From contig NC_064039.1 of NCBI RefSeq assembly GCF_932526225.1, positions 6,257,459 through 6,321,458 of the forward strand: 64,000 bases of DNA. Reading direction: 5' to 3'. A model generated the notes under the pieces. It did no database searches. It saw only the letters and a program-made list of their open reading frames with translations, and was not told the origin of the DNA. The translations under genes were made by a program, and so were the position numbers. Below, piece after piece: positions 44,760-62,388 of the stretch (its first letter is position 1; each line of letters opens with the position of its first letter). This DNA is from Nematostella vectensis. Its lineage: Eukaryota.

Positions 44760-45748
44760 TGAGACAGAAAATCGCCCCTGCTCATGGTTGCTCACTTCCG
44801 GTTTGCCAAGGAAACCCAGATGAACAGGGAACAAATTGAATGGGCGCATGCATTTTTTTTACGCTCGATATATTTATTTTTCAAGAATAGTGTTTCGTTT
44901 TAGTTTTTTTTACTGGATTCGTTAAGAGATTTCTTTATCCCAATCCAAGTCTTAATGGTATACATACCACCAGTACTCTTCCTGTTTGCTCGCCGATACA
45001 ACGTAACCATCTTCGCTTCTTGACTTGGCCTCGCTCCACCTTTGAAGATTGGGCTTGACATCGTTTGCGTCCTCTTTGCTCATGTTGCTGCTGAATTTAA
45101 AAATCATGAAAACACGAACTTTTACAACTAACTATTGGGGAATCTGGAGCGAGTTTAAAAGGTCGACTTTGCCTGATGTGAAAAACAAAACCTACAAGAC
45201 AGAGAAAAATGTGGGTGTTCGAGTGTACTGTAGCCTACCCCGTAGGCATCTCAAAGAGCATTCAACTGTTCAAAGAGCAATAGAGAAAAATTGCCCAACA
45301 CCGCCTGGTTGAACTCCCTGTGGAGTGCTCATGATTTCTCACTTCCGGTTTGCCAAGGAAACCCAAATCAAAGGGGAATAAATTGAATGGACGCATGCAT
45401 GGTTTTACGCTCGATATATTCATTTTTCAAGAATAGTGTTTCGTTCTAGATTTTTCTTACTGGATTCTTTTAGAGATTTCTTTATCCGTATCCAAGTTTA
45501 CACTGAAGAGTAGTGTGTTACCTTTCGGCCTTAGTCGGCTGAACATCGCTCAACTTTTCCAGATCAGGCTTGACATCCTTTGTGTCTTCTTTGCTCATGT
45601 TCCTGCTGACTCTAAAAATTATGAAAGCGTGAACTTTCACAATAAGCGGTATGGGGTAATCTGGAGAAGGTTGGAAGGTCGAATTTGTTTGATGTGAAAA
45701 AAAAAACCCTTCAAGACTGAGGAAAATGTGGGCTAAAGCCTTTCCCTC
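44760..45748 (+). repeat. Host 547-bp tandem repeat (unit 1 complete; unit 2 interrupted by the Maverick/Polinton element and continuing at 62383)
   Basis: The marker CTCACTTCCGGTTTGCCAAGGAAACCC occurs at 44791 and 45338. The units share AATTGAATGG.CGCATGCAT, TTTTCAAGAATAGTGTTTCGTT and a minus-strand MSKED..DVKP.L mini-ORF. Confidence 0.75.
45743..45748. repeat. Target-site duplication, left copy (TCCCTC)
   Basis: Identical hexamer directly abutting both element ends. A 6-bp TSD is the Maverick/Polinton hallmark. Confidence 0.75.
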
Positions 45749-46255
45749 AGTAGTAGGGTTTTGGCGCAGCTGGCGCAACTTTTTGATCTCCCCAAATTTC
45801 ATTCCAAAAGTGGCGCAAAAGTCTCCGCACACCTCCGCCAAGCCTCGCGACCTGCGCATGCGCGAGTTTGCCAGAGATCTCTCGCACGACCAAGCCCACC
45901 TGTCAATCACTTTGTCACGTGACGGCCACGCCCACCTGTCAATCACTTTGTCACGTGACGGCCACGCCCACCTGTCAATCACTTTGTCACGTGATAGCCA
46001 CGCCCACCTGTCAATCATTTTGTAAAAAACCTGTCAATCACTTTGTCACGTGATGACCACGCCCACCTGTCAATCATTTTGTCAAAAACCTGTCAATCAC
46101 TTTGTCAAAAACCTGTCAATCACTTTGTCAAGAACCTGTCAATCACTTTGTCAAAAACCTGTCAATCACTTTGTCAAGAGCCTGTCAATCATTTTGTCAC
46201 GTGATAGCCAAGCCCACCTGTCAATCACTTTGTCACGTGCTGCACCTAGGGGGAG
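45749..46255 (+). repeat. Left terminal inverted repeat of the Maverick/Polinton element
   Basis: The outer ~150 bp are identical to the reverse complement of 62233..62382. They are followed by 12 copies of a subrepeat with core CCTGTCAATCA(C/T)TTTGTCA, in 36-bp (..GTCACGTGACGGCCACGCCCA..) and 23-bp (..GTCAAAAA..) variants. GCGCATGCGC lies at 45854..45863. Confidence 0.9.
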
Positions 46256-46270
46256 CCTGGGGGCTATTCT

Positions 46271-46281
46271 GGTCTAAAGAC
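46271..46281 (+). promoter_or_regulatory. Degenerate early-type box GGTCTAAAGAC upstream of ORF 46301
   Basis: It lies 20 nt before the ATG and carries one mismatch to GGTTTAAAGAC. Confidence 0.3.
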
Positions 46282-46300
46282 GTATGAGACCCTAGATAAA

Positions 46301-46561
46301 ATGACATTAAAGACGGAGGTGAAGATTAAAAACGGTGCGGCTACCGCCGGCGGTTGTTCGGTGCCGGAGGTGAACGTGAGTAACACTGCGGATGCGGGGC
46401 CTGAACACTGCTGTTGTAACGCTGATTACTATGAAGACTCAGAATACGGAAGCTTCGACCCCGTTGGGTTTGTGGCCGGAGCGGCGACAATTGTCCTTGG
46501 TGTTCTAGCAATGTTAGTCTCCATGCCACGGTATGGCGAAAAAAGATGGGTGAGATACTAG
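46301..46561 (+). CDS. Element ORF: small tail-anchored membrane protein (86 aa), function unknown
   Basis: ATG-initiated ORF just inside the left TIR. It is preceded by the degenerate box GGTCTAAAGAC (46271..46281). It has a C-terminal hydrophobic helix, VGFVAGAATIVLGVLAMLV. Confidence 0.35.
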   Translation: MTLKTEVKIKNGAATAGGCSVPEVNVSNTADAGPEHCCCNADYYEDSEYGSFDPVGFVAGAATIVLGVLAMLVSMPRYGEKRWVRY

Positions 46562-46652
46562 TCCACGGATGTGGTGCGGAGGCTTTAGACCGCACCGCCC
46601 CCACGCGGACCCCTTCGGAAGTCTTAGCAACCACACACATCACACCCAGAGG

Positions 46653-46674
46653 GAGCTCGAGGGGCTAGCCTCTC
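46653..46674 (+). other. Palindromic motif copy GAGCTCGAGGGGCTAGCCTCTC (upstream of the TFIIB-like gene)
   Basis: Non-coding copy, ~30 nt upstream of the early box. Confidence 0.6.
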
Positions 46675-46701
46675 AGCTTCACATCTAAAAAAGCTTTTGA
46701 A

Positions 46702-46716
46702 AAGTGGTTTAAAGAC
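46702..46716 (+). promoter_or_regulatory. Early-type TATA-like box AAGTGGTTTAAAGAC (TFIIB-like gene)
   Basis: TTTAAAG starts 26 nt before the ATG at 46734. It is part of a 46-nt block identical to the PolB upstream region. Confidence 0.6.
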
Positions 46717-46733
46717 ATGAACAGTTTAATAAA

Positions 46734-47660
46734 ATGGAGGAACGAACAGTTGAACGTACGGCTGAAGATCGGTCACCACCACCATATAATATCCTCGGCG
46801 GACCGGTGCCTGAGATTAACGCCCCCACCCTCATGCCGGAATTTGCACTGTTTGACCGAGCCCTCACCGAATACGAGACTAGTAGAGCCTCCTTGGGAGA
46901 CGAGGATAGTAGTAACACCCTTTGCAATCATGGCGACCTAGTCACAGAGGACGGGGTCACTAGTTGCTTAGAGTGCGGGGAACAGATGCAGCGCGTGATC
47001 GCGCACGAAAGGGAATGGGGTTTTTACGGACATTCCGACGGCGAACGGTCTTCGGATCCAAGTCGGGTCCAGGTACGTAGGTCTGAGGATAGAAATATTG
47101 ACAAGGATGTGGAGAACATGGGTTTTAGCGGGGTAATTGTATCCAAAGCTAACGAGATATACACTCAGGTGACGAAAGGCCAGATTTTTCGCGGCGACCC
47201 ACGGAAGGCGGTCGTCTTTGCGTGTATCTACTACGCCTACAAGATGTCCGGTAAGTGTCAGACACCGAAAACCTTGATGGAAACTTTTGGATTGAGCAGG
47301 AAGAGTTGCCTTAAGGGTCTAAAAATCTTTAGTATTAACGTGCCTAAAGATTACTTACTACACGGAACGTCTCCCACCGTCGTGGACCACATTCACGATG
47401 TGATGGATAGATTCTCGGCGTCCCCCGCACAGAAGGGAGAGGTGGTCCAGCTCTACTACAGATCTAAGAACCGCTCGTCTGAGTTGAATCGCGCTCGCCC
47501 ACAATCCTTTGCGGTCGCTTTAACCTATTACTGGGTACGGCTAAAGGGGGTCGATATTACACTTAAAAAATTCTCCGAAAGAACGGGCGTCTCCGAGTTA
47601 ACCATCAGTAGGAAAGCGAGAGAAGTGGCCACAGTCCTGGGTACGCCTGGTGTGGTATGA
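46734..47660 (+). CDS. Element-encoded TFIIB-like transcription initiation factor (zinc ribbon + B-reader-like segment + two cyclin folds)
   Basis: 308 aa. CNHGDLVTEDGVTSCLECG..REWGFY..SDPSRVQ parallels TFIIB CPNHPDAILVED..ICPECG..SEWRTF..KDPSRVG. RGDPRKAVVFACIYYAYKMSG..TLMETFGLSRKSCLKGLKIF parallels the first cyclin repeat ([42 protein letters not shown]). RARPQSFAVALTYYWVRLKGVDITLKKFSERTGVSELTISRKAREV parallels the second ([38 protein letters not shown]). The comparison is from memory of the TFIIB sequence, not a computed alignment. Confidence 0.8.
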   Translation: MEERTVERTAEDRSPPPYNILGGPVPEINAPTLMPEFALFDRALTEYETSRASLGDEDSSNTLCNHGDLVTEDGVTSCLECGEQMQRVIAHEREWGFYGHSDGERSSDPSRVQVRRSEDRNIDKDVENMGFSGVIVSKANEIYTQVTKGQIFRGDPRKAVVFACIYYAYKMSGKCQTPKTLMETFGLSRKSCLKGLKIFSINVPKDYLLHGTSPTVVDHIHDVMDRFSASPAQKGEVVQLYYRSKNRSSELNRARPQSFAVALTYYWVRLKGVDITLKKFSERTGVSELTISRKAREVATVLGTPGVV

Positions 47661-47749
47661 TGTTTCCTGATTTCCAGAGAAATCAGGATTTCCAGAAAAC
47701 TGTCAGTTCGGAGTAGATGTGAATTAACACGTCTAAAGAAATTCGAAAA

Positions 47750-47764
47750 AAGTGGTTTAAAGAC
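47750..47764 (+). promoter_or_regulatory. Early-type TATA-like box AAGTGGTTTAAAGAC (ankyrin gene)
   Basis: TTTAAAG starts 26 nt before the ATG at 47782. Confidence 0.6.
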
Positions 47765-47781
47765 GTGGATGTAATAACAAA

Positions 47782-48606
47782 ATGGATATGCAAAGTGCTG
47801 GAAGTCTTACAAATCTCACCGTGGAGGATCAAGCCGCCACCTTAGCGAGGTGGGGAGCCGCAGACTTTGACGCCGTTATGGAGCGCGCGGCGTGGGAGGG
47901 GTGCGTCGAGACCGTGAGGTTGTGTAAGAGTTGGGGTGCGACGGATTTCGAAAAGCCGATGGTCAGGGCCGCAATGAACGGCCACACCGAGATCGTTAAG
48001 ATGTGTTGTGAGTCGGGCGCCTGTGACTTCGTGTATCCAGCGTCCATGGCCGCGAAAGGCGGGCACGTAGAGGTTTTGAAGGTGATGGGCGAGTATTGTG
48101 CCGACGGAGGAGAGGCCATGACCGAGGCCATGGGTGCTGCGGCGGCGGAAGGTCAGGTGGGGGTTGTTGAGTTGTTGATAGATCTAGGTGTCGATGTCGA
48201 TGTCGGTTGGGCCACCGCTGAGGCGGCGTACAATGGGCACGTTGAGGTTCTGAAGCTGCTGAGAGAAAACTTCTGGGAGTTTGACCCGGACTATGCTATA
48301 ACACCAGCCATCGAATCTCGCAACCTCGAGATTGTGAGGTTGTGCTTGGAGTGGGGCGCGACCGATCTCATTGTACATATGAACTACGCACGGTTTTGGC
48401 ATCTGCATAAGATTTTCGCGGTGCTACGTGCGGCGTGGGGGTGGAGTCTTGTGCATGAGGAGCTCCCGGAGAAGCTACACAAGGTGAGATTCCGTAGAAA
48501 GCTGGAGGACGAACTAATGCCAGTAGCTTGGCATCCGGACAGGTTTTGGGATTGGTGCATGGATGAGCAAGAGAAGGAAATGTTGGGAGAATGCTTCGCC
48601 AGGTAG
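47782..48606 (+). CDS. Element ORF: ankyrin-repeat protein with a Trp/Cys-rich C-terminal tail
   Basis: 274 aa with about 6 repeats bearing the ankyrin signature: AAWEGCVETVRLC, AAMNGHTEIVKMC, AAKGGHVEVLKVM, AAAEGQVGVVELL, AAYNGHVEVLKLL, ESRNLEIVRLCLEWGA. The tail is VAWHPDRFWDWCMDEQEKE. The early-type box lies at 47750..47764. Confidence 0.75.
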   Translation: MDMQSAGSLTNLTVEDQAATLARWGAADFDAVMERAAWEGCVETVRLCKSWGATDFEKPMVRAAMNGHTEIVKMCCESGACDFVYPASMAAKGGHVEVLKVMGEYCADGGEAMTEAMGAAAAEGQVGVVELLIDLGVDVDVGWATAEAAYNGHVEVLKLLRENFWEFDPDYAITPAIESRNLEIVRLCLEWGATDLIVHMNYARFWHLHKIFAVLRAAWGWSLVHEELPEKLHKVRFRRKLEDELMPVAWHPDRFWDWCMDEQEKEMLGECFAR

Positions 48607-48647
48607 ACGCCGACCGGCTAGAAGGCGGGTATCGCGTGTTGGATTGA

Positions 48648-48663
48648 AAAGTGATTTAAGGAC
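48648..48663 (+). promoter_or_regulatory. Early-type box AAAGTGATTTAAGGAC (zinc-ribbon gene)
   Basis: It directly abuts the ATG at 48664 and lies 27 nt before the second ATG at 48682. Confidence 0.55.
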
Positions 48664-49011
48664 ATGACCGGTTTGATAGAAATGGAGAACCAAACGGTGA
48701 AAGACTCGAAAGTATCCCCCGTAAAGCGAACAACGGATTATAAGTGTCTTCATGGCAGAGTGAAATATTATTGCAAAGATTGTCACGGATCGCAAATCTG
48801 CCCTCACAACCGGAGAAAAACGCGGTGCAGAGAATGTAACGGCGGTAGCATTTGTGAGCACAGACGAGCAAGATATGTCTGTAAAGACTGCAAGGGGAAA
48901 GGGATGTGTGAACACAGCAAACAGAGACCCTTTTGTAAGTTATGCGGAGGGTCTCAAATATGCGAACACGATAGACAAAAGCACCATTGCAGAACGTGTA
49001 ACGGAAATTAA
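48664..49011 (+). CDS. Element ORF: tandem Cys/His zinc-ribbon repeat protein (putative nucleic-acid binding)
   Basis: 115 aa with four tandem units of C-x-H-x(4-6)-C-x2-C-x-G-x3: CLHGRVKYYCKDCHGSQI / CPHNRRKTRCRECNGGSI / CEHRRARYVCKDCKGKGM / CEHSKQRPFCKLCGGSQI / CEHDRQKHHCRTCNG. It shares the N-terminal MTGLIEMEN and the promoter with the PolB gene. The functional start may be the second ATG at 48682. Confidence 0.6.
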   Translation: MTGLIEMENQTVKDSKVSPVKRTTDYKCLHGRVKYYCKDCHGSQICPHNRRKTRCRECNGGSICEHRRARYVCKDCKGKGMCEHSKQRPFCKLCGGSQICEHDRQKHHCRTCNGN

Positions 49012-49026
49012 CATTGACCCACTCAG

Positions 49027-49053
49027 TTTTGTAACGCGTCTCACGTTACAAAA
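49027..49053. terminator. Perfect 10-bp stem hairpin at the convergence point of the plus and minus gene blocks
   Basis: TTTTGTAACG-cgtctca-CGTTACAAAA, 16 nt after the stop codon of the zinc-ribbon gene. A role in 3' end formation is speculative. Confidence 0.3.
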
Positions 49054-49208
49054 CACATACATTCCTAATCACCCTAACAACTAGCGATTCTGAAAATAGG
49101 TTTTGTATTTACATTGAGAGTTCGCGGTCGCCAGGGTGGTCTGGTATGCACGTGAACAGGTATTGTCTTCTTGCGGTACGTCACATCCGTCCACATGCAC
49201 CCCGCATG

Positions 49209-50735
49209 TTACCGGAATAGATACCAAGCTAAACCAGCCGTAAAGGCTGTGATCGTGACAAGGTTATTTTCGTGCTGCGTGTTCGTGGGTTTAATCACGT
49301 CCGGCTTTGGGTTAGTTTTCGCCTCCGGTTCCGGTTTGTGAGCCGTGACTGACTCGGTATGAGGTAACACAATCTTTGAATGACCCATATTATGTTTAGG
49401 GATCGTTTTTATCTCGTTATTTATCGGATTCAGCCCCAGTTTCATATCAGTGGTGGCTTTTTGTAACTTGTTATTATAGCCAGCGATCGAAGTGTTGTTA
49501 TTTATCACAAGATACGATGGACTTAACCAACAGCCGAGGGCGAAAGCTAGGTCTAGTTTTTGTCTCGCCTGTTGTAAAGCAAACTGATACCGTTGTATAC
49601 TTTTCGATATACTGTTTTCCACCACCGCGCTTTCGAAGAGTTTCGTGAAGACCTGTTTCGTTTCCTGAGCTGAACCGCTATCGCCGACGATTGACGACCG
49701 GGTCTGAACTTGCGCGCCTAGAATACAGTAGACAAAGGCTTCGATGCTCTGGTTTATCCTAGACAACCCAGCTTTGGTTAACCCCATTGATTTTTCCGGA
49801 AAGAACCACTCATACTGAAACCCAGTTCTAAGGTCTTTCAGGTACTCGATCTCAAAGTGATTCATGTGTTCGTGGTCGCTTTTGGCAGCGTCCCATTCGT
49901 CGTGTAATTGATCAATGGTGCCATAAGGCTTATACTTGTCGTTAGAAGATGACAAGCCGTGATAATCATAATTATAAACGTTCCCTAACCCGTGATTTAT
50001 CGGTCTGAGGAACCGGAAATCGTCACCAGTTCGGAATTCTGTTCTTAGTTTTTGGTAAGCCGCTTCGCTGTAAAAGTTTTTATTCCAACTAAAGAGCCTA
50101 TCTTTTGGAAGAGGGCATTGTAGCTCGTTTAATATTCGTCTGATAGTGAAAATGATGTGAAATCTGTAGAATGACCCCACTTGAGAGTCGTCAATCATGT
50201 CACGCGTCACACCACATCCAGCAGTCGCGCAAAACATAGCAAAATTTAAGGCTTGACTCCAATAACTGAGGTTTGGGGCGTCGAGCCACCTACTAGCCTC
50301 CTTTGCTGTTCTGAATACTAGCAAGCTGTCGGTGAATATGTCCCTAAAAACAAAGTGTGTCTTCACCTTTGGTGTTATAAAAACATTAAAAGAGACGTAA
50401 TTATTTCTCGTAGGGTTTTCGTCCCACGGCAATATCTTGTACTCTGCACGCGCGTCTAGTCTGTATTGTTTTGGGAACCCAAACAGTTGCTGGATCGTTT
50501 CCTTGTATGCTTGTGTGTCGTCGGCGACTAGAAAATCCTGGATATTCTCGGGTTTCCAGCTATTACCAGGGAAGTGATATAACGTTTTGACTAGATTCCC
50601 ATTCTTGTCGAATGGATCGTATTCGTCCCCATTGAAAACGAATTGCACATTGCCGTGCCCGTCGGCAGAGAACCTGAAGCGTGAGTAGTAGGGGTACCTT
50701 TTCACAAATTCTGTAAACTTCATCTTATATGACAT
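49209..50735 (-). CDS. Element ORF: 508-aa protein of unknown function with a C-terminal transmembrane anchor
   Basis: Long uninterrupted ATG ORF in the minus-strand gene block. The box GATTTAAAAAC lies upstream at 50743..50755. The C-terminus NLVTITAFTAGLAWYLFR is hydrophobic. I recognise no family motif. Confidence 0.6.
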   Translation of the reverse strand: MSYKMKFTEFVKRYPYYSRFRFSADGHGNVQFVFNGDEYDPFDKNGNLVKTLYHFPGNSWKPENIQDFLVADDTQAYKETIQQLFGFPKQYRLDARAEYKILPWDENPTRNNYVSFNVFITPKVKTHFVFRDIFTDSLLVFRTAKEASRWLDAPNLSYWSQALNFAMFCATAGCGVTRDMIDDSQVGSFYRFHIIFTIRRILNELQCPLPKDRLFSWNKNFYSEAAYQKLRTEFRTGDDFRFLRPINHGLGNVYNYDYHGLSSSNDKYKPYGTIDQLHDEWDAAKSDHEHMNHFEIEYLKDLRTGFQYEWFFPEKSMGLTKAGLSRINQSIEAFVYCILGAQVQTRSSIVGDSGSAQETKQVFTKLFESAVVENSISKSIQRYQFALQQARQKLDLAFALGCWLSPSYLVINNNTSIAGYNNKLQKATTDMKLGLNPINNEIKTIPKHNMGHSKIVLPHTESVTAHKPEPEAKTNPKPDVIKPTNTQHENNLVTITAFTAGLAWYLFR

Positions 50736-50742
50736 ATAAGAT

Positions 50743-50755
50743 GTTTTTAAATCAG
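50743..50755 (-). promoter_or_regulatory. Variant box CTGATTTAAAAAC (ORF 49209..50735)
   Basis: It lies 9 nt before the first ATG at 50735 and ~21 nt before the second ATG (MSYKM). Confidence 0.4.
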
Positions 50756-50813
50756 TCCTTTACGCATCTCAATTCATAGATCCATCCGACGGGAGTTCTC
50801 TCGTACAGAAATT

Positions 50814-51419
50814 TCACCGAGCGGGTCGACTCGCCAGGTCTTTCAAAATCTCTTCTCTTACTGTTTCCCTCAGCTTGGTAATGTTTACGTTTTTTTCGTC
50901 CTCTCTTACCGACTTTTGACGGATCTGGAGCTTTAGAGCCTCAAACTTGTCCACCTCGTTCAAGATTAAAGAGAACTCTTCGTCTGATATTTTGTTGTCT
51001 TTTAAAGCTTTAGAGACCAGGTCGCGTATGCTATTTACTTTTGCCTTTGCCATCGCCGCTGTTTGGTCGTGCTTGGAGACTTTTTGCGACAGCCGTTTAG
51101 AAACCGCCGCACAGCCTACAGACGTAAGACCGAAAACACCGGCCAAAGCACCCAACGGAACTCCGACGACGATACCAAAACCTGACAGAGAAGTCCCCAA
51201 ACCACTAGACCCAAGAATGACGGATAAGAGTCCTAAGACCACACTTAACTTTGAAAACACGCTCTGCCCTCGTTTATACTTTTTCCTCACGTTCTCGTAA
51301 TGTTTAACTTCTTGCTCCAAACTTCCCAAAACATCGTGGGTCTTTTGGAGTCTGAAGTTATCACCCGAGGGGCTGACCCCTCGGGGTACGTTCGGGTAGA
51401 TTGAGTTGTACTCTTCCAT
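50814..51419 (-). CDS. Element ORF: two-pass glycine-zipper membrane protein with a C-terminal coiled coil (201 aa)
   Basis: Central segment LSVVLGLLSVILGSSGLGTSLSGFGIVVGVPLGALAGVFGLTSVGCAAV, followed by a charged helical tail. The box CACTTAAAGAA lies upstream at 51442..51455. Confidence 0.6.
   Translation of the reverse strand: MEEYNSIYPNVPRGVSPSGDNFRLQKTHDVLGSLEQEVKHYENVRKKYKRGQSVFSKLSVVLGLLSVILGSSGLGTSLSGFGIVVGVPLGALAGVFGLTSVGCAAVSKRLSQKVSKHDQTAAMAKAKVNSIRDLVSKALKDNKISDEEFSLILNEVDKFEALKLQIRQKSVREDEKNVNITKLRETVREEILKDLASRPAR
51366..51384 (-). other. Related palindrome CCGAGGGGTCAGCCCCTCG inside ORF 50814..51419
   Basis: It shares the GAGGGG-N-CCCCTC arms with the other copies and encodes PRGVSPS. 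Confidence 0.4.
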
Positions 51420-51441
51420 AGCTTTATTATGGGGAGAATTT

Positions 51442-51455
51442 ATTCTTTAAGTGAT
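51442..51455 (-). promoter_or_regulatory. Variant box ATCACTTAAAGAAT (ORF 50814..51419)
   Basis: It lies ~25 nt before the ATG at 51419 and overlaps the stop codon of the penton candidate. Confidence 0.45.
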
Positions 51456-52070
51456 TTCTAAAATTAGACGTATCGGGTAGAGACCGCGCTCTATTGTGTT
51501 TCCGTCACCACCCTTTATACTAAGACGGAGACTACTCACGTAACCGACTGATGTGGTGCTAACCCGTACCGGATCGCTTGGATTGAGGTATATCTTTCCT
51601 TCATCAAGCTCTACACTTGCTAGGATTTGTGAGGGCGCCCCTTGTTGGAGGGAGTCAGACGCGTTCACAAGATCGCAGTGGATAAAAATAGCCTCGTGAC
51701 CTATCATCTTTATCTCGTGGCGAGTGTTTGCTTCCAGCTCCCTGGTCTTGAGTCCTAACAGGCAGGCGAGCGGCTCATTCAACGCGACGTTCCGGTGAAC
51801 TTCGAGTGACGAGTCTCTAATAGAGACTGACTTTTCACCAAGACGCATACCCCCATCTATTTGACGTTTTAGCGTCTCGATCGTATACTGCCCCGCGGGG
51901 ATCCTAAGGATAATGTTCTCACCGTCGGAGACCGTTCCCTCGCTTGAGAGACTGTTACAACGATTATGAAACGCACATCCTCGCAGCGCGATAAACCGCG
52001 GCTTTTCAATAGGTTGTTCTAAATAGACAGTAAAGTCACCAACGTTTCCTTCAATGTAGAGTAATACCAT
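51447..52070 (-). CDS. Element ORF: candidate minor capsid (penton, single jelly-roll) protein, 207 aa
   Basis: The size, beta-rich composition and position within the morphogenesis block fit a Polinton minor capsid protein. The motif AIFIHCDLV..S resembles penton-like proteins I recall from invertebrate Polintons. No structure prediction was possible here. Confidence 0.45.
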   Translation of the reverse strand: MVLLYIEGNVGDFTVYLEQPIEKPRFIALRGCAFHNRCNSLSSEGTVSDGENIILRIPAGQYTIETLKRQIDGGMRLGEKSVSIRDSSLEVHRNVALNEPLACLLGLKTRELEANTRHEIKMIGHEAIFIHCDLVNASDSLQQGAPSQILASVELDEGKIYLNPSDPVRVSTTSVGYVSSLRLSIKGGDGNTIERGLYPIRLILEIT

Positions 52071-52073
52071 TTG

Positions 52074-53096
52074 TTATGATTTCCGTCTCCTTTTAAATCG
52101 TTCTACGGAATACAGGACGACAGCGACGATGAGAAGCCATGCGTTTTTAGCTAAAAAGCCAACAACTTCACCTGCCGTTCTAAATATGAAACTAGCTATA
52201 GCACCAACCATTCCTGGGAGTATTTCTCCTAATTTTTTGCCTATTGTTTTCAGACCATTTCCAACACCTTTTGCAACACTAGTCAGCCCAGCTTTCAGAT
52301 TAGAGACAATAACACCGATAACAACGCCCACAGCGGTAACGACAGCAGCGACTGTAAATCCGTATTTCTTAAAAATCGCTTTGACACGATCTTTCAACGA
52401 CATTCTCTCTTCAAGATTTTCTCTCTCCAATTGATTCTCTTCCAAAGTCTCATCTATGACAGAATTTCTTTCGCTGAGCTCTTCATTTTTACGATCTATA
52501 GCTCTTAGTCTTTCTTGGTTAGTTGTTTCACTTCGTTCCTCATTATTTTTTCTCATTTGCTCGGTGTTTCTCTCTTCTTCTTCTCTGAGTGTATTACCTG
52601 TAGCGTCTAGTTCATCGAGTTGAATCTGAATTTGCTTGTACTTTCCGGATCTGATTTTGTCGTCAACACTCTTCCGCACCGTTCTATCCTCATTATACAA
52701 CCTTTCTGGTCTAGTCCAACCACCTTTTCTCGCAGAATAGAAGGAAATGAATTGTTTTCCTCTCTCATCCGTTGAAATCTGAACTAGATTTTCATCAAGA
52801 TCTGGATATTTCGATAACAAAAGGTCTACCCTAAGTGTGTCCGTTGAAGGAGAACCTCCCATATTCTGTAACTCCATGTACTCGGGGACAGCCCTCCCGG
52901 GGTTTCGTGTTTTCCATAAGTCAGTCAACCTCCTACTCACATAGCTTGCACCTCTACCAAATCTGTTTGAAATCCTTTCATTCCATGATTCTCTTCCCTC
53001 ACCATCGTTTGGAATAAGAGAGTCATAATCTTCGTCTACAGTAGTATTCAAATCTTCTCTACCTTCTTCTGTTGTGGGATCAAAATCTATATCCAT
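52074..53096 (-). CDS. Element ORF: coiled-coil protein with C-terminal multi-helix glycine-rich membrane domain (340 aa)
   Basis: A central E/R/N-rich heptad-like region (LREEEERNTEQMRKNNEERSETTNQERLRAIDRKNEELSERN) is followed by FTVAAVVTAVGVVIGVIV, ILPGMVGAIASFIF and AWLLIVAVVLY. The box GACTTAAAGATT lies upstream at 53121..53133. Confidence 0.6.
   Translation of the reverse strand: MDIDFDPTTEEGREDLNTTVDEDYDSLIPNDGEGRESWNERISNRFGRGASYVSRRLTDLWKTRNPGRAVPEYMELQNMGGSPSTDTLRVDLLLSKYPDLDENLVQISTDERGKQFISFYSARKGGWTRPERLYNEDRTVRKSVDDKIRSGKYKQIQIQLDELDATGNTLREEEERNTEQMRKNNEERSETTNQERLRAIDRKNEELSERNSVIDETLEENQLERENLEERMSLKDRVKAIFKKYGFTVAAVVTAVGVVIGVIVSNLKAGLTSVAKGVGNGLKTIGKKLGEILPGMVGAIASFIFRTAGEVVGFLAKNAWLLIVAVVLYSVERFKRRRKS
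52089..52100 (-). promoter_or_regulatory. Variant box CGATTTAAAAGG (penton candidate), inside the 3' coding end of the upstream gene
   Basis: It lies ~20-25 nt before the ATG at 52070 and is encoded within ..ERFKRRRKS* of ORF 52074..53096. Confidence 0.4.
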
Positions 53097-53120
53097 TTCT
53101 TATTTTGTTTGAAAATAAGA

Positions 53121-53133
53121 AATCTTTAAGTCG
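53121..53133 (-). promoter_or_regulatory. Late-type box CGACTTAAAGATT (ORF 52074..53096)
   Basis: It lies 34 nt before the ATG at 53096. Confidence 0.5.
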
Positions 53134-53140
53134 TGCCAGC

Positions 53141-53557
53141 TCATATCCACCTACTCGCTACATAGCCAAGGGCTAACATTCCACCTCCAACGTACGCCAT
53201 CTCTCCCATCTTTTGGTTGCTACTTGGTCTGTAGTAATCTGAGAGCTCAGGCTCTTTCAAATCAAAATCTGGATGTGTTTGAGCGTATAGTTTGAAAGCC
53301 TCATCCGTCTCTTTATCGTTCTCATCCGCACGAACTTTATCGTTGTATTGTTCAGTCAACCAATCCTGGTATTCCTGTCTTTTTTTCTGCCAATCACCCA
53401 TTGCTTGTTGATACTTTTCAAGCGCTTTATCGTGTCTTATTTTTTCTTTATCAACATGAGTAGCGTCAGAAGACAAGTATCTCGCTAGGTAACTCCCTCC
53501 GACAAACGCCGTCGCATTAATAAAAGCCCCACCAATCATAAATGCTATACTCGCCAT
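53141..53557 (-). CDS. Element ORF: small membrane protein (138 aa; N- and C-terminal hydrophobic helices)
   Basis: MASIAFMIGGAFINATAFVGGSYLA at the N-terminus and MAYVGGGMLALGYVASRWI at the C-terminus. The box GACTTAAAGATC lies upstream at 53575..53588. Confidence 0.55.
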   Translation of the reverse strand: MASIAFMIGGAFINATAFVGGSYLARYLSSDATHVDKEKIRHDKALEKYQQAMGDWQKKRQEYQDWLTEQYNDKVRADENDKETDEAFKLYAQTHPDFDLKEPELSDYYRPSSNQKMGEMAYVGGGMLALGYVASRWI

Positions 53558-53574
53558 TTATTAATCAATCTATA

Positions 53575-53588
53575 AGATCTTTAAGTCG
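53575..53588 (-). promoter_or_regulatory. Late-type box CGACTTAAAGATCT (ORF 53141..53557)
   Basis: It lies 28 nt before the ATG at 53557. Confidence 0.5.
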
Positions 53589-53589
53589 C

Positions 53590-53814
53590 CTACAGCGGTT
53601 TTGGCAAAATCTTTTGTGTTTCCAGATAATCTTTCAGATACATACTACCGGACAGGACAGCAACCCATTTAGCGTAGTTTGTAACACTTGACGAAGGGTC
53701 GCTGATGAATGACTCTTTCATAGCCTTTTTAGCAACATAACCCACGCCGGCGGCTAATCCGATGATGACTGCTGAGTCGGTGATCGTTTTCACAAGTTTG
53801 TTTTCAGTTGACAT
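53590..53814 (-). CDS. Element ORF: small membrane protein (74 aa)
   Basis: Hydrophobic segments AVIIGLAAGVGYVA and WVAVLSGSMYL. The perfect late-type box GTGATTTAAAGATT lies upstream at 53840..53853. Confidence 0.5.
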   Translation of the reverse strand: MSTENKLVKTITDSAVIIGLAAGVGYVAKKAMKESFISDPSSSVTNYAKWVAVLSGSMYLKDYLETQKILPKPL

Positions 53815-53839
53815 GATTTTATTTATTACAGATTCAGAT

Positions 53840-53853
53840 AATCTTTAAATCAC
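53840..53853 (-). promoter_or_regulatory. Late-type box GTGATTTAAAGATT (ORF 53590..53814)
   Basis: It lies 35 nt before the ATG at 53814. The 14-mer is identical to the one at 54335..54348. Confidence 0.55.
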
Positions 53854-54311
53854 AACATTCCTATTTTTGGCGTCGCGTTCGGGAGGCTAGCCCCTCGAGC
53901 TCCCCCTAGGTGGGAGGTGGGTCTCCCAAGAGTTTCGGCCTCGTTGACGTTAATCTTAGACGGCTCGCCCTCTTTCTTTTTGTAAAAACGCATATACATA
54001 TCCAATGCGGTGAGCCCTATTCCAACTAGAGCCAGTACAGTTGTAAACGATAGCTCTGGAATCCAAGCGTCCGAGAGGCTATCCCCTCGAGCTCCCTCTT
54101 GGTGGGGTGTCTCTGCTCGTGCAGCGTCTTCTGAACTCGCCTCCGCCTCGCGTTTCATCTCCCTAGCAAGTGCTTCTCTACACCTCCTATTATATTCGGC
54201 AACTCTCTTACCAGAAGCGACTTTTATAGGATCTTTCTCCTTAGCGGCACTCTTCTTCCTGGGGGGAGGGTCCTTTGTGATTTGCTCAACCTCTTGATTT
54301 TCGTCAGACAT
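53850..54311 (-). CDS. Element ORF: basic N-terminus plus single-TM protein (153 aa)
   Basis: K/R-rich N-terminus (PPRKKSAAKEKDPIKVASGKRVAEYNRRCREALAREMKRE), then a TM helix LSFTTVLALVGIGLTALDMYM. It contains two in-frame copies of the palindromic motif. The box GTGATTTAAAGATT lies upstream at 54335..54348. Confidence 0.55.
   Translation of the reverse strand: MSDENQEVEQITKDPPPRKKSAAKEKDPIKVASGKRVAEYNRRCREALAREMKREAEASSEDAARAETPHQEGARGDSLSDAWIPELSFTTVLALVGIGLTALDMYMRFYKKKEGEPSKINVNEAETLGRPTSHLGGARGASLPNATPKIGML
53883..53902 (-). other. Palindromic motif copy inside ORF 53850..54311
   Basis: The reverse complement reads GAGCTCGAGGGGCTAGCCTC, encoding GARGASL. It lies ~35 nt upstream of the late box for ORF 53590..53814. 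Confidence 0.6.
54075..54094 (-). other. Palindromic motif copy inside ORF 53850..54311
   Basis: The reverse complement reads GAGCTCGAGGGGATAGCCTC, encoding GARGDSL in the same codon phase as the copy at 53883. Confidence 0.55.
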
Positions 54312-54334
54312 GATTCTTTACTCACTGAATAAAG

Positions 54335-54348
54335 AATCTTTAAATCAC
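54335..54348 (-). promoter_or_regulatory. Late-type box GTGATTTAAAGATT (ORF 53850..54311)
   Basis: It lies 33 nt before the ATG at 54311. Confidence 0.55.
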
Positions 54349-54352
54349 ATCA

Positions 54353-54488
54353 TGCTCAAGAGCTTGCTCAGTTGTGCTCAAGAGCTTGCTCAGGTGTGCT
54401 CAAGAGCTTGCTTAGGTGTGCTCAGGTGTGCTCAAGAGTTTGCTTAGGTGTGCTCAGGTGTGCTCAAGAGTTTGCTCAGTTGTGCTTG
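54353..54488. repeat. Intra-element 22-bp minisatellite (GTGCTCAAGAGCTTGCTCAGGT, with 10-bp short variants), ~6 copies
   Basis: It lies in the spacer between ORF 53850..54311 and ORF 54454..54981 and extends into the last ~10 codons of the latter. Confidence 0.8.
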
Positions 54489-54981
54489 AAACTTCTTGAA
54501 GTTTGTTGGAAGTCTCCTGTGAAGGTGTTAGTTTAACATGCTTAGCGACCCGAAAGATGGCACTAGCAAGTGCTACCATCCTTCCTCCCTTCAATACCAA
54601 GAGACCTGCAAAGTTTGACAATTCGCGTTTAACCAACTCGTCGTTCTGTAAGTCTTTGCTAAGCGCTTCGGTGTCATCTACAGGAACCACGTAGGAAATG
54701 ACTTGAGACACCACTTGAAGTGCTGATTCTACTAATCCATCAGTAACTTGTTTGCCTAAGACAGTCTGGTAGCGAACAAAGTACTTTTCGACGTCTTTCG
54801 CCGGGAGCTTCTTGATGTCCCCTAAACTCATGTCCACACCAAGAAATTCCTTCGTAGTCCCAAGAGATGCGAGAATAGCCAGCGATTCTCGTTTGACTTC
54901 AACATCGTCTTCGAGAGGCTCACCCTTCGAGCTCCCCTTAGACTTAGGCTCCTCTTCCATATAATCCTCAATGCTTGCCAT
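54454..54981 (-). CDS. Element ORF: 175-aa acidic/helical protein, function unknown
   Basis: The ORF track starts at 55047. However, the early-type box AAGTGGTTTAAAAAC (55006..55020) lies inside that extension, 33 nt before the ATG at 54981 (MASIEDYMEEE..). I therefore take 54981 as the start. The protein contains no Cys, so it is not a cysteine protease. Confidence 0.55.
   Translation of the reverse strand: MASIEDYMEEEPKSKGSSKGEPLEDDVEVKRESLAILASLGTTKEFLGVDMSLGDIKKLPAKDVEKYFVRYQTVLGKQVTDGLVESALQVVSQVISYVVPVDDTEALSKDLQNDELVKRELSNFAGLLVLKGGRMVALASAIFRVAKHVKLTPSQETSNKLQEVSSTTEQTLEHT
54915..54934 (-). other. Palindromic motif copy inside ORF 54454..54981
   Basis: The reverse complement reads GAGCTCGAAGGGTGAGCCTC, encoding SSKGEPL in the same codon phase. 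Confidence 0.5.
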
Positions 54982-55005
54982 CTTATTTTGTAAGTAGACC
55001 AAGAT

Positions 55006-55020: not shown

Positions 55021-55021
55021 C

Positions 55022-61838: not shown

Positions 61839-61853
61839 GTCTTTAAACCACTT
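61839..61853 (-). promoter_or_regulatory. Early-type TATA-like box AAGTGGTTTAAAGAC (PolB gene)
   Basis: It abuts the ATG at 61838 and lies 27 nt before the second ATG at 61820. Confidence 0.6.
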
Positions 61854-61881
61854 TTCAAAAGCTTTTTTAGATGTGAAGCTT

Positions 61882-61902
61882 AGAGGCTAGCCTCCCGAGC
61901 TC
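61882..61902 (-). other. Palindromic motif copy (upstream of PolB, at the inner TIR edge)
   Basis: The reverse complement reads GAGCTCGGGAGGCTAGCCTCT and contains the perfect 12-bp palindrome GAGGCTAGCCTC. Confidence 0.6.
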
Positions 61903-62382
61903 CCCCTAGGTGCGACACGTGACAAAGTGATTGACAGGTGGGCTTGACTATCACGTGACAAAGTGATTGACAGGTTCTTGACAAAATGATTGACAGGTTC
62001 TTGACAAAATGATTGACAGGTTTTTTACAAAGTGATTGACAGGTGGGCGTGGCTATCACATGACAAAGTGATTGACAGGTTTTTGACAAAGTGATTGACA
62101 GGTGGGCTTGGCCGTCACGTGACAAAGTGATTGACAGGTTTTTTACAAAGTGATTGACAGGTGGGCTTGGCTATCACGTGACAAAGTGATTGACAGGTGG
62201 GCTTGGCTATCACGTGACAAAATGATTGACAGGTGGGCTTGGTCGTGCGAGAGATCTCTGGCAAACTCGCGCATGCGCAGGTCGCGAGGCTTGGCGGAGG
62301 TGTGCGGAGACTTTTGCGCCACTTTTGGAATGAAATTTGGGGAGATCAAAAAGTTGCGCCAGCTGCGCCAAAACCCTACTAC
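61899..62382 (-). repeat. Right terminal inverted repeat of the Maverick/Polinton element
   Basis: Reverse complement of the left TIR, with 11 subrepeat copies in a slightly different order. GCGCATGCGC lies at 62269..62278. The base at 62383 is ambiguous between TIR and TSD. Confidence 0.9.
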
Positions 62383-62388
62383 TCCCTC
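62383..62388. repeat. Target-site duplication, right copy (TCCCTC)
   Basis: See the left copy. If 62383 is counted as TIR instead, the TSD is the 5-bp CCCTC. Confidence 0.75.

What the first reader, a model, noticed from the sequence alone, without database searches (positions are those of the whole stretch)
47782..49011. Giant-virus-style accessory module: ankyrin-repeat protein and tandem zinc-ribbon protein under class-1 promoters
Seen in sequence:
- A 274-aa protein has about 6 ankyrin-type repeats and the tail VAWHPDRFWDWCMDEQEKE.
- A 115-aa protein is made almost entirely of four to five C-x-H-x(4-6)-C-x2-C-x-G units.
- Both follow the TFIIB-like gene on the plus strand and carry the same box as PolB.

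Established knowledge: ankyrin-repeat proteins and iterated Cys-rich zinc modules are typical host-interaction or regulatory genes of large eukaryotic DNA viruses. They are not core Polinton genes.

Inference: the left arm (46301..49011) is a regulatory or host-manipulation module. The zinc-ribbon protein is a candidate sequence-specific binder of the palindromic motif or the TIR subrepeats.
Basis: partly seen in the sequence, partly recalled or inferred. Interest (0 to 1): 0.5.

Follow-up and report, generated by a model that had tools for sequence, protein, structure and literature searches.

The report
Polinton accessory genes: ankyrin adaptor, zinc-knuckle array
Two small genes in an intact virus-like transposon (Polinton) of an animal genome encode an ankyrin protein ending in an undescribed 50-residue tail, and a basic protein of five zinc knuckles; relatives of both recur in other Polintons and in contigs that look like giant viruses.

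Summary
Window 47782-48606 encodes a 274-aa protein with six ankyrin repeats and a C-terminal tail. Window 48664-49011 encodes a basic protein with five C-x-H-x6-C-x2-C-x-G units spaced exactly 18 residues apart. Each gene has its own copy of the 16-nt box AAAGTGGTTTAAAGAC, which also precedes PolB and the TFIIB-like gene. They lie in an intact 16.6-kb Polinton with TIRs and a target-site duplication.

New points:
- The tail (..ELxPVAWHPDRxxDWCxDExEK..LW) is a separate C-terminal module. It was found in 747 protein clusters, on unrelated N-terminal domains, and has no Pfam or PDB match.
- It occurs in at least five other Polinton loci. It also occurs as tandem paralog arrays in AT-rich contigs that look like giant viruses.
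- Full-length relatives of the zinc protein carry the N-terminal Rho_N/SAP leader of PolB. The window copy lost it by an in-frame deletion but keeps all 20 Cys/His ligands. dN/dS is 0.13-0.25.
- A tail gene and a zinc gene are adjacent in three elements.

The genes are lineage-conserved accessory genes, not host passengers. The proposed functions (adaptor; nucleic-acid binder) are inferred. "Zinc ribbon" and "TIR binder" are unverified.

The parts
45749..46261 (.). Left terminal inverted repeat of the Polinton (element 45749-62383); carries 12 copies of the core CCTGTCAATCAYTTTGT
   Evidence: Inverted repeats 92-97% complementary to 61894-62383. Termini AGTAGTAGGG...CCCTACTACT flanked by CCCTC on both sides. 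Core copies counted; tandem periods 36, 59 and 23.
46701..46716 (+). Class-1 box upstream of the TFIIB-like gene (context)
   Evidence: Exact match. About 75 nt around it are nearly identical to the region upstream of PolB (I5, 111).
46734..47660 (+). TFIIB-like gene (context; first gene of the left-arm group)
   Evidence: PF00382 E=1.5e-8. NCBIfam TFB E=1.9e-8 over residues 116-302; phrog_20431 E=1e-10. The N-terminus holds the leader motif NILGGPVPEINAP.
47749..47764 (+). Class-1 box AAAGTGGTTTAAAGAC of the ANK gene, 17 nt upstream of the ATG
   Evidence: Exact match; alignment of the four upstream regions.
47782..48606 (+). ANK+tail gene, 274 aa
   Evidence: ORF; Pfam Ank families; AF2 model and Foldseek hits to DARPins. 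Homologues P0001 and P0002 are 38% and 33% identical in the BLASTP alignments, which cover 83-85% of the query; the alignment shows that the tail is included.
47845..48381 (+). Six ankyrin repeats (about aa 22-200), unit 'AAxxGHxEIVKLCxxWGAxDF', period 27-31 aa
   Evidence: Residues 171-204 have pLDDT below 50.
48442..48603 (+). C-terminal 'WHPDR' tail module (aa 221-274): three predicted helices; W250, H251, P252, R254, W258 and C259 nearly invariant in the family
   Evidence: pLDDT 83-97. 747 cluster representatives at E<=1e-3 and 73 at E<=1e-10. Near-invariant columns. C-terminal position and consensus. No Pfam or PDB match.
48644..48712 (+). 5' segment of the zinc gene (box plus first ~16 codons) that is an 87% copy of the 5' end of PolB (61790-61858, minus strand)
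   Evidence: I15; MTGLIEMEN shared; 14 of 22 residues identical.
48648..48663 (+). Class-1 box variant AAAGTGATTTAAGGAC of the zinc gene
   Evidence: 2 mismatches. Related boxes stand before the orthologous genes in L002 and L003, each followed by ..ataaaATGGAGAAC.
48664..49011 (+). Zinc-knuckle array gene, 115 aa (probable true start 48682, 109 aa), pI 9.3
   Evidence: ORF. Homologues 64-69% identical. AF2 pLDDT above 90 over residues 30-110. pN below pS against L002 and L003; dN/dS 0.25 against L003. Composition.
48745..48999 (+). Five CHCC units (aa 28-112), I-C-[EP]-H-x-[RK]-x-[KR]-x2-C-[KR]-[ED]-C-x-G-S-x, period 18 aa
   Evidence: Unit positions and family consensus; near-invariant Cys, His and Gly columns.
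49026..49054 (.). Perfect 11-bp hairpin (GTTTTGTAACG / CGTTACAAAAC, 7-nt loop) between the converging zinc gene and the 508-aa gene; possible 3'-end signal
   Evidence: A similar hairpin lies at 47665-47688, after the TFIIB-like stop codon.
61839..61854 (-). Class-1 box of PolB (PolB CDS 57912-61838, minus strand), the reference copy
   Evidence: Exact match.
61894..62383 (.). Right terminal inverted repeat (11 copies of the core)

Best explanation
Window 47782-49011 holds two lineage-conserved accessory genes of an intact, apparently young 16.6-kb Polinton/Maverick integrated in an animal-like genome. Each gene has its own copy of the promoter-like box that also precedes PolB and the TFIIB-like gene. 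This box differs from the (C/T)TTAAAGAT version in front of the capsid-module genes. They are therefore most likely expressed with the replication and transcription genes (inferred).

Gene 1 is a two-part adaptor. Six ankyrin repeats form the variable target-binding part. A conserved ~50-residue, three-helix C-terminal module (consensus HKxxF..ELxP[VI]AWHPDRxxDWCxDExEK..LW) is the constant docking part. The same module ends hundreds of proteins with unrelated N-terminal domains in Polintons and in contigs that look like giant viruses. The architecture is shown; the docking function and the partner are inferred.

Gene 2 is a basic (pI 9.3) array of five 13-residue Cys-His-Cys-Cys knuckles, presumably binding one zinc each. 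It is the shortened form of a family whose full-length members start with the same Rho_N/SAP domain and 'NILDEPIPEINVP' linker as the N-terminus of PolB. It most likely binds nucleic acid as a cofactor of the replication/transcription group (inferred from basic conserved positions and the fused SAP domain). Its 5' end, promoter included, is a copy of the 5' end of PolB.
For: Element integrity:
- PolB, rve integrase, A32 ATPase and MCP are present.
- The TIRs are 92-97% complementary. The CCCTC duplication and AG..CT termini are present.
- CpG observed/expected is 0.93 in the element against 0.69 in the flank.

Promoter class:
- Box statistics are and the alignments.
- The capsid-module genes carry a different flank around the same TTTAAAG core.
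- Box variants stand before the orthologous zinc genes in L002 and L003.
- In L005 the zinc gene and the tail gene share the same 5' sequence.

ANK fold.

Tail as a separate module:
- 747 clusters match.
- The motif lies a median of 26 residues from the C-terminus.
- N-terminal partners among the top 150 hits are ANK in 9, DUF4116 in 9, Rho_N/SAP in 2, RING in 1 and Death in 1; most have no annotation.
- Near-invariant W, H, P, R, W and C. AF2 pLDDT is 83-97.

Tail genes in Polintons:
- L001 and L026 carry ANK+tail genes; L004 carries two tail genes and L005 one, with other N-termini.

Tail genes in giant-virus-like contigs:
- GVMAG L006 and the 299-kb contig L010.
- Arrays of 6-9 paralogs in contigs of 21-22% GC: L040, L082, L084.

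Zinc family:
- Homologues are 64-69% identical and carry Rho_N.
- The gene sits in the same left-arm position in L002, L003 and L025.
- dN/dS is 0.13-0.25 with saturated dS.
- Basic residues at unit positions 5, 7 and 11 are conserved at 85-99%.
- The zinc gene is adjacent to a tail gene in the window, L004 and L005.
- It lies within 5 kb of a TFIIB-like gene in L012 and L013.
Against: - No biochemical or expression data exist. 'Promoter' rests on conservation and position only.
- The tail matches no known domain, so 'docking module' is an argument from architecture alone.
- The ANK protein has no close homologue (best 38% identity), so selection on it could not be measured. It is a compositional outlier (GC3 0.66 against 0.33-0.57). 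Residues 171-204 are poorly modelled.
- The window zinc gene lacks the Rho_N/SAP domain and linker that all six closest homologues keep, so it could be a crippled copy.
- The pairing of tail gene and zinc gene is not obligatory. L001 and L026 lack the zinc gene; L002, L003 and L025 lack the tail gene. None of 79 environmental tail loci holds a zinc-repeat gene. None of 12 IMG/VR zinc loci holds a tail.
- The giant-virus nature of the AT-rich contigs is inferred from composition, gene density and neighbouring T5orf172 and Rho_N genes. No hallmark gene was found there.
Confidence: 0.5

Rival explanations
1. The tail is a functional analogue of the poxvirus PRANC/F-box or of a SOCS/BC box. The ANK+tail protein would recruit host targets to a cellular cullin-type ubiquitin ligase for degradation. 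This is a specific version of the adaptor model.
For: - The layout is the same as in poxvirus ANK/PRANC proteins: N-terminal ANK, a short conserved helical C-terminal module, and multigene families in large DNA viruses (established knowledge; architecture shown).
- One family member pairs the tail with a RING finger and one with a Death domain.
Against: - No F-box, PRANC or SOCS family is hit by the tail, even at E<=10, for the window tail or for 62 diverse tails. There is no PDB sequence match.
- The N-termini of the ANK-only relatives P0003 and P0004 looked F-box-like by eye, but no F-box family scored at E<=0.1.
- The module is absent from Pfam. Nearly all hits come from unannotated metagenome assemblies. 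A mimic of a common host motif would be expected in annotated cellular proteomes.
Confidence: 0.15
2. The zinc-knuckle protein is not a sequence-specific regulator. It is a general nucleic-acid chaperone or condensing protein (like retroviral nucleocapsid or adenovirus core proteins), or a protein-binding scaffold. The tail is then a signal for virion incorporation or oligomerisation.
For: - The number of units varies widely between relatives: 5 in the window, about 14 in L005 and 10 or more in P0197. L011 gives overlapping hits over about 830 nt. That fits avidity or coating better than a fixed recognition code.
- The TIR core is not conserved in any locus that carries a zinc gene.
- In L004 and L026 the tail genes sit inside or next to the capsid module, beside the A32 ATPase.
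Against: - In the window both genes carry the PolB-class box, not the capsid-class version.
- Orthologues share the PolB leader, which points to the replication group.
Confidence: 0.2
3. The two ORFs are passenger sequences or decaying genes with no current function in this copy.
For: - The window zinc gene has lost its Rho_N/SAP domain and linker, and its box has two mismatches.
- ANK is a GC3 outlier, has insertions relative to P0001 and P0002 and has a low-confidence segment.
- Close relatives of the element lack ANK.
Against: - Both ORFs are intact in an element whose other ORFs, TIRs and target-site duplication are all intact.
- The deletion is in frame, and all 15 Cys and 5 His ligands are retained. 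pN is below pS.
- The ANK+tail architecture, junction included, is shared with genes in two other Polinton lineages.
- The best hits are element genes, not host genes.
Confidence: 0.12

Closest known systems
Poxvirus ankyrin/PRANC (F-box-like) host-range proteins
   Same: N-terminal ankyrin array plus a short, conserved, helical C-terminal module. The C-terminal module is the constant part of a family whose N-terminal part varies. Found in large eukaryotic DNA viruses (established knowledge; architecture here).
   Different: No detectable sequence relation to PRANC or F-box. The tail also caps non-ankyrin domains: DUF4116, 'LSxNPxAIHLLE' repeats, RING, Death and unannotated folds. It occurs in Polintons of 12-17 kb, not only in large viruses. 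The partner is unknown.
Repeat-protein multigene families of giant viruses (ANK, F-box, BTB, MORN, FNIP and similar)
   Same: Tandem arrays of paralogs built from a repeat domain plus a conserved terminal module: L040 has 9 tail genes in 17 kb, L084 has 7 and L082 has 6, all at 21-22% GC.
   Different: The C-terminal module is not one of the described ones; no Pfam family matches. The giant-virus origin of these contigs is inferred, not shown by hallmark genes.
Adintovirus 'Oncoid' proteins (small Cys-rich accessory proteins upstream of PolB; PMC8502044)
   Same: Small accessory proteins with paired CxxC motifs, encoded near the PolB end of animal Polinton-like viruses.
   Different: No LxCxE motif in the window protein or in any of 34 family members. 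The protein is a regular array with an 18-residue period rather than a few CxxC pairs. Orthologues carry a Rho_N/SAP domain.
Retroviral-type CCHC zinc knuckles and the DnaJ CxxCxGxG cysteine-rich domain
   Same: Very short metal-binding units (13-14 residues) repeated in tandem. The CxxCxG element resembles the DnaJ repeat. The basic character resembles nucleocapsid knuckles (sequence).
TFIIB-like transcription factors of Nucleocytoviricota (context for the neighbouring gene)
   Same: A virus-encoded TFIIB-like factor beside genes that share a TATA-like box. TFIIB-like genes co-occur with zinc-repeat genes in the large IMG/VR contigs L012 and L013.
   Different: Here the factor sits in a 16.6-kb Polinton. 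None of the five papers whose full text I queried for it (adintovirus, PLV framework, Bamfordvirae) mentions a TFIIB-like gene in a Polinton.

Membership tests
Ankyrin-repeat proteins | Profile match above the curated threshold | tested here: met
   Ank_2 46 bits (cut-off 27.3), Ank_4 43.4 (22.7), Ank 43.1 (21.1), Ank_3 42.1 (22.3).
Ankyrin-repeat proteins | Stacked helix-turn-helix solenoid fold | tested here: met
   The AF2 model has paired helices through residues 14-164. Foldseek matches DARPins and natural ANK proteins with probability 1.0, E about 3e-5 and TM (target) up to 0.74.
Poxvirus PRANC / F-box-like C-terminal domain | Profile similarity of the C-terminal module to PRANC or F-box families | tested here: not met
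   No such Pfam family at E<=10 for the window tail or for 62 diverse tails. No PDB sequence match.
Poxvirus PRANC / F-box-like C-terminal domain | Binding to Skp1 / SCF | not testable with these tools
   Needs interaction assays or complex prediction.
Zinc ribbon (TFIIB/TFIIS/rubredoxin-like) | Two CxxC knuckles on beta-hairpins forming a three-stranded sheet; profile match to a zinc-ribbon family | tested here: not met
   The unit is C-x-H-x6-C-x2-C, 13 residues long. AF2 shows two isolated bridge residues and one 3-residue helix per unit. No zinc-ribbon Pfam family matches. No PDB fold match.
DnaJ central cysteine-rich domain (PF00684) | Score above the gathering threshold | tested here: not met
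   12.9 bits, E=0.14, cut-off 32.7.
EsV-1-7 cysteine-rich motif (recalled from memory as a Cys-rich repeat linked to brown-algal viruses) | Pfam profile match | tested here: not met
   No such family listed for the window protein at E<=10 or for 34 family members at E<=0.01.
Adintovirus 'Oncoid' proteins (PMC8502044) | LxCxE Rb-binding motif next to CxxC pairs | tested here: not met
   LxCxE is absent from the window protein and from 0 of 34 family members. The definition was read.
Polinton/Maverick element (the host element) | Protein-primed-type PolB, rve integrase, A32-like ATPase and double jelly-roll MCP | tested here: met
   rve E=9.9e-8; Pox_A32 E=3.7e-11; Capsid_N weak at E=0.0036. The 412-aa ORF is 93% identical to the MCP-position gene of L002. 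A 1308-aa PolB is present. The PolB itself was recognised through homologues and its Rho_N and Endonuclease_7 segments, not through a polymerase profile.
Polinton/Maverick element (the host element) | Long terminal inverted repeats and a short target-site duplication | tested here: met
   TIRs of about 500 bp, 92-97% complementary. Termini AG...CT with CCCTC on both sides.
'WHPDR-tail' family (defined here) | C-terminal ~50-residue module with near-invariant L..W-H-P-x-R-x2-D-W-C | tested here: met
   The window tail seeds a profile that finds 747 clusters. Near-invariant columns; C-terminal position.
Rho_N/SAP + CHCC-array family (defined here) | N-terminal Rho_N/SAP domain and 'NILDEPIPEINVP' linker before the array | tested here: not met
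   The window protein keeps only MENQTVKD of the leader. About 50 codons are missing relative to P0013-P0018. The array itself is 64-69% identical, so this is a truncated member.

The most novel reading that the evidence does not exclude
The 'WHPDR' tail is a previously undescribed, virus-specific C-terminal docking domain shared by animal Polintons and giant viruses. It would mark a large superfamily of modular effectors: a variable recognition domain plus a constant tail that plugs into one conserved partner, such as a capsid or packaging component or a host hub protein. The tail gene and the CHCC-array gene would form a recurrent early-gene pair, driven by promoter-plus-leader cassettes copied from the PolB end of the TIR. 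This would be a concrete, shared accessory toolkit linking Polintons and Nucleocytoviricota beyond the capsid module.
Probability: 0.3. Interest if true: 0.7.

Novelty: new variant of a known kind. Interest (0 to 1): 0.45.

Why it matters
Polintons/Mavericks are usually described by their core genes (PolB, integrase, capsid module). Their accessory genes are mostly unannotated.

This locus gives two defined accessory families, neither with a Pfam or PDB match:
- A C-terminal tail module found in 747 protein clusters.
- An 18-residue-period Cys-His-Cys-Cys array.

Both families recur across divergent animal Polintons and have relatives in contigs that look like giant viruses. If the tail is a common docking domain, it offers a way to find viral effectors in metagenomes and a testable link between Polinton and giant-virus host-interaction repertoires.

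The zinc gene starts with a copy of the PolB promoter and leader, and the start of the TFIIB-like gene lies in an extension of the TIR. This suggests a simple way for terminal genes of such elements to gain expression signals.

If the genes turn out to be inert, the locus is still a clean example of accessory-gene turnover at the arms of a Polinton.

Tried and rejected
- Exact look-up of the ANK protein and of the flanking UMPS-like protein in the assembly index found nothing on record. It is only animal-like, from CUB-domain and UMPS-like ORFs read by eye from the translations.
- PDB sequence searches with the tail and zinc profiles gave no significant hit; the only one was a chance-level CYLD B-box at E=0.26.
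- Pfam, PHROGs and NCBIfam found nothing for the zinc array or the tail.
- The idea that the ANK-only relatives P0003 and P0004 carry an N-terminal F-box got no Pfam support.
- The idea that P0032, P0028 and P0197 fuse the array to an HNH-type nuclease, recalled by eye, got no Pfam or NCBIfam support. It is not used as evidence.
- Literature searches for the tail and array peptide strings and for Polinton + ankyrin/TFIIB gave no description of these families.
- A scan of IMG/VR for the exact 16-nt box gave 62 single hits. By my own rough estimate for a 16-mer in a collection of that size, this is about the chance level, so it is uninformative.
- A metagenome scan with the full ANK protein found no close relative.
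- Cluster look-ups gave no organism names. One 'Acinetobacter baumannii' UniRef label on a 60-aa tail fragment is probably contamination.
- dN/dS for ANK was not attempted because the best homologue is only 38% identical.
Full report
**Setting**

The finding lies in the left arm of a complete Polinton/Maverick at window 45749-62383 (16,635 bp).
- The element has terminal inverted repeats of about 500 bp that are 92-97% complementary (45749-46261 and 61894-62383).
- Its termini are AGTAGTAGGG...CCCTACTACT, flanked on both sides by CCCTC.
- On the minus strand it carries an A32-type packaging ATPase, a 412-aa capsid-protein gene and a 1308-aa PolB. An rve integrase is on the plus strand.
- All ORFs are intact. 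CpG observed/expected is 0.93 in the element against 0.69 in the flank, which fits a young insertion.
- The flank holds CUB-domain ORFs and an intronless UMPS-like ORF, both read by eye from the translations. The host therefore looks like an animal. Its species could not be named.

ORF 47782-48606 (274 aa) scores above the curated threshold for four Pfam ankyrin families. Its AlphaFold2 model is an ankyrin solenoid that matches DARPins with Foldseek probability 1.0. The repeat cores lie at residues 36, 63, 90, 121 and 148, with a degenerate sixth near residue 176.

ORF 48664-49011 (115 aa) holds five units of C-x-H-x6-C-x2-C-x-G, spaced exactly 18 residues apart. It has 15 Cys and 8 His, and pI 9.3. 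AlphaFold2 models the array at pLDDT above 90.

The 16-nt box AAAGTGGTTTAAAGAC is exact before the TFIIB-like gene, the ANK gene and PolB. It has two mismatches before the zinc gene and before the 197-aa ORF. No shuffle out of 100 reaches the observed count of six matches at up to 3 mismatches.

In each case an ATG in the context ..a(t/g)a(a/g)aATGG follows 17-20 nt downstream. The zinc protein and PolB therefore probably start at MEN.. (48682 and 61820), not at the upstream ATG that abuts the box.

**The box defines a promoter class**

Every gene of the element has a TTTAAAG or CTTAAAGA core 20-30 nt before its ATG.
- PolB, the TFIIB-like gene, ANK, the zinc gene and the 197-aa ORF share the flank AAAGTGG...GAC.
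- The capsid-side genes (MCP and the 340-, 138- and 153-aa ORFs) have (C/T)TTAAAGAT.
- Related boxes precede the orthologous zinc genes in L002 and L003.
- In L005 the zinc gene and the tail gene begin with the same 5' sequence.

Promoter function is inferred from position and conservation only.

**The ankyrin protein: the tail is the distinctive part**

The closest homologues (P0001 at 38% identity and P0002 at 33%) share the repeat type, the junction and the tail. P0002 lies in a distant Polinton (L001, MCP 33% identical), next to homologues of the 201- and 508-aa genes.

A profile of three tails, searched against 1.84 billion cluster representatives, found 747 proteins at E<=1e-3 and 73 at E<=1e-10.
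- The motif lies a median of 26 residues from the C-terminus.
- L, W-H-P, R, D-W-C are invariant or nearly so.
- Among the top 150 hits the N-terminal parts are ankyrin (9), DUF4116 (9), Rho_N/SAP (2), RING (1) and Death (1). Most are unannotated.
- AlphaFold2 predicts three helices at pLDDT 83-97.
- Pfam finds nothing for the window tail or for 62 diverse tails, even at E<=10. The PDB has no sequence match.

**Where tail genes are found**
- In Polintons. L026 (PolB 34% identical, with a PLA2-like gene and a CUB-gene flank) has an ANK+tail gene directly upstream of the A32 ATPase. L004 (MCP 65% and PolB 73% identical) has two tail genes with other N-termini. L005 has one.
- In IMG/VR. Five loci were found, including a giant-virus MAG and a 299-kb contig.
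- In environmental metagenomes. 79 loci were found, 22 of them with two or more tails. L040 has 9 tail genes in 17 kb, L084 has 7 and L082 has 6. These contigs have 21-22% GC and dense intronless ORFs. Their tandem paralogs are built from 'LSxNPxAIHLLEKNxDKIxW' repeats ending in ..RMNIIRKELMEKTWHPNRFKDWCLDIDELKEL, and their neighbours include T5orf172 and Rho_N genes.

The arrays look like a giant-virus multigene family, but no hallmark gene was found there. The ankyrin protein is therefore one member of a large modular family with a constant C-terminal module and a variable recognition domain.

**The zinc protein: a truncated member of a PolB-leader family**

The closest homologues (64-69% identical, 156-177 aa) begin with a Rho_N/SAP domain and a linker 'NILDEPIPEINVP' before the same five units. 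The N-terminus of PolB carries the same leader: MENLKVKDLKALAKERGIPRYY...SILDGPIPEINVP. The TFIIB-like protein retains MEERTVE...NILGGPVPEINAP.

The window zinc protein keeps only MENQTVKD. About 50 codons are missing in frame.

At the DNA level, 48644-48712 is an 87% copy of the 5' end of PolB (I15). The region 46640-46754, which covers the TFIIB-like promoter and first codons, is an 83% inverted copy of 61801-61915 (I5). On the left side orf86 lies between the TIR repeats and this segment. The promoter-plus-leader cassette thus behaves as an inner extension of the TIR that has been copied onto left-arm genes. This is an inference.

Selection on the array: pN is 0.19-0.25 and pS is 0.60-0.76 between the window, L002 and L003. 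dN/dS is 0.13-0.25 where it can be computed, and dS is saturated. All 20 ligand residues are intact.

**Synteny**
- The zinc gene occupies the same place, immediately left of the converging 508-aa gene, in the close relatives L002, L003 and L025 (MCP 85-93% identical). None of these has a TFIIB-like or ANK gene within 10 kb upstream. L002 is abutted by a 441-bp satellite and may be truncated.
- A tail gene and a zinc gene are adjacent in the window, in L004 and in L005. L004 also has a TFIIB-like gene.
- In the large IMG/VR contigs L012 and L013 a TFIIB-like gene (35% identical) lies within 5 kb of a zinc-repeat gene.
- The pairing is not obligatory. None of 79 environmental tail loci holds a zinc array, and none of 12 IMG/VR zinc loci holds a tail.

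**Interpretation**

Shown:
- Two intact accessory genes, each with its own copy of the PolB-class box.
- An ankyrin fold plus a separate, widespread and unannotated tail.
- A conserved, basic Cys-His-Cys-Cys array under purifying selection, whose family shares the PolB leader.
- Recurrence of both families in several Polinton lineages, with relatives in contigs that look like giant viruses.

Inferred:
- Expression with the replication/transcription class.
- The tail acting as a docking module, by analogy of layout with poxvirus ANK/PRANC proteins. No homology with those proteins was found.
- The array acting as a nucleic-acid-binding cofactor.

The TIR core (12 + 11 copies) is absent from all other loci that carry a zinc gene. 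The number of units also varies from 5 to about 14 or more between relatives.

The passenger-gene rival is unlikely, because the best hits are genes in other elements and the ORFs are intact. However, ANK is a GC3 outlier (0.66) and could be a later acquisition. The zinc gene has also lost a domain.

**Novelty**

None of the five papers whose full text I queried describes these two families or a TFIIB-like/ANK/zinc group in Polintons. Searches for the peptide strings returned nothing relevant.

The nearest described things are:
- poxvirus ANK/PRANC proteins;
- giant-virus repeat-protein families;
- the Cys-rich 'Oncoid' genes upstream of PolB in adintoviruses (PMC8502044), from which this protein differs by lacking LxCxE.

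I rate the finding a new variant of a known kind (viral modular accessory proteins), of moderate interest.

Noticed in passing
window 46640-46754 and 61801-61915; orf86 46301-46561: The inverted repeat continues inside the TIRs. The promoter and first codons of the TFIIB-like gene are an 83% inverted copy of the promoter and start of PolB. On the left side only, the 86-aa ORF, which ends in a hydrophobic stretch (AGAATIVLGVLAMLV), sits between the TIR repeats and this segment.
   Followed up: partly
window PolB N-terminus (61838 downwards), TFIIB-like N-terminus 46734-46850; P0013-P0018: A shared N-terminal leader (Rho_N/SAP domain, proline-rich stretch, then 'NILDxPIPEINxP') occurs on PolB and on full-length zinc-array proteins. 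The motif alone occurs on the TFIIB-like protein. Its function is unknown.
   Followed up: partly
window 49209-61854, upstream of each element gene: Every gene has a TTTAAAG or CTTAAAGA core 20-30 nt before its ATG. There are two flank classes: AAAGTGG..GAC for PolB, TFIIB-like, ANK, the zinc gene and the 197-aa ORF; (C/T)TTAAAGAT for MCP and the 340-, 138- and 153-aa ORFs. With an element-encoded TFIIB-like factor, this looks like a self-contained transcription system.
   Followed up: partly
window 47665-47688 and 49026-49054: Perfect 10- and 11-bp hairpins lie immediately 3' of the TFIIB-like and zinc-gene stop codons. There is none after the ANK stop. They may be 3'-end signals.
   Followed up: no
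window 46659-46674 (also about 45 nt upstream of the boxes at 61839 and 55006): The near-palindrome GAGGGGCTAGCCTCTC (variants GGGAGGCTAGCCTCT and GAGGGGCTGACCCCTC) lies upstream of three of the class-1 boxes. It is absent upstream of the ANK and zinc genes.
   Followed up: no
window 45744-45748 and 62384-62388: CCCTC flanks both ends of the element (target-site duplication). The termini are AG...CT, and the outermost 52 nt are identical.
   Followed up: yes
window 47782-48606: ANK is the compositional outlier of the element: GC 0.56 and GC3 0.66, against GC3 0.33-0.57 for all other genes. It may have been acquired later than its neighbours.
   Followed up: partly
window PolB aa 587-630 (about 59950-60080, minus strand): PolB contains an Endonuclease VII / HNH-like segment (PF02945, E=7.8e-6). 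The PolB of L026 has a faint hit to the same family, and the PolB of L005 shows the same HCHICEG...DHCH motif.
   Followed up: no
L023:8001-8822 and L024:8001-8822: A TFIIB-like gene 66% identical to the window's lies in IMG/VR contigs (322 kb, and a 42-kb giant-virus MAG) with 32% GC. No Polinton core gene lies within 8 kb; a WW+UCH gene is nearby. This hints at exchange of the factor between Polintons and larger viruses or hosts.
   Followed up: partly
L040, L082, L084 (metagenome contigs, GC 21-22%): Tandem arrays of 6-9 paralogous genes are built from 'LSxNPxAIHLLEKNxDKIxW' repeats capped by the WHPDR tail. Pfam gives the repeat itself only weak NosD hits.
   Followed up: partly
L002:6500-9838: A 441-bp satellite (at least 7.6 copies, 95% matches) runs to within about 130 nt of the box of the zinc gene. 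This relative may be truncated on its left side.
   Followed up: no
L001:10001-10705: The database protein P0002 (234 aa) reads through a TGA. In the standard code the ORF ends at ...MWKI (214 aa), matching the end of P0001. The gene caller apparently used another genetic code.
   Followed up: yes
window 8509-9006 and 12945-13397; 17231-18664: The host flank holds two ORFs that are identical over about 140 aa and look like CUB domains by eye, 4.4 kb apart (a local duplication). It also holds an intronless 477-aa ORF that looks like UMP synthase by eye.
   Followed up: no
window 62488-62975 (just outside the right TIR): The 137-aa ORF on the minus strand matches itself at shifted positions (92-93% identity). 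It therefore lies in a short tandem repeat abutting the element.
   Followed up: no
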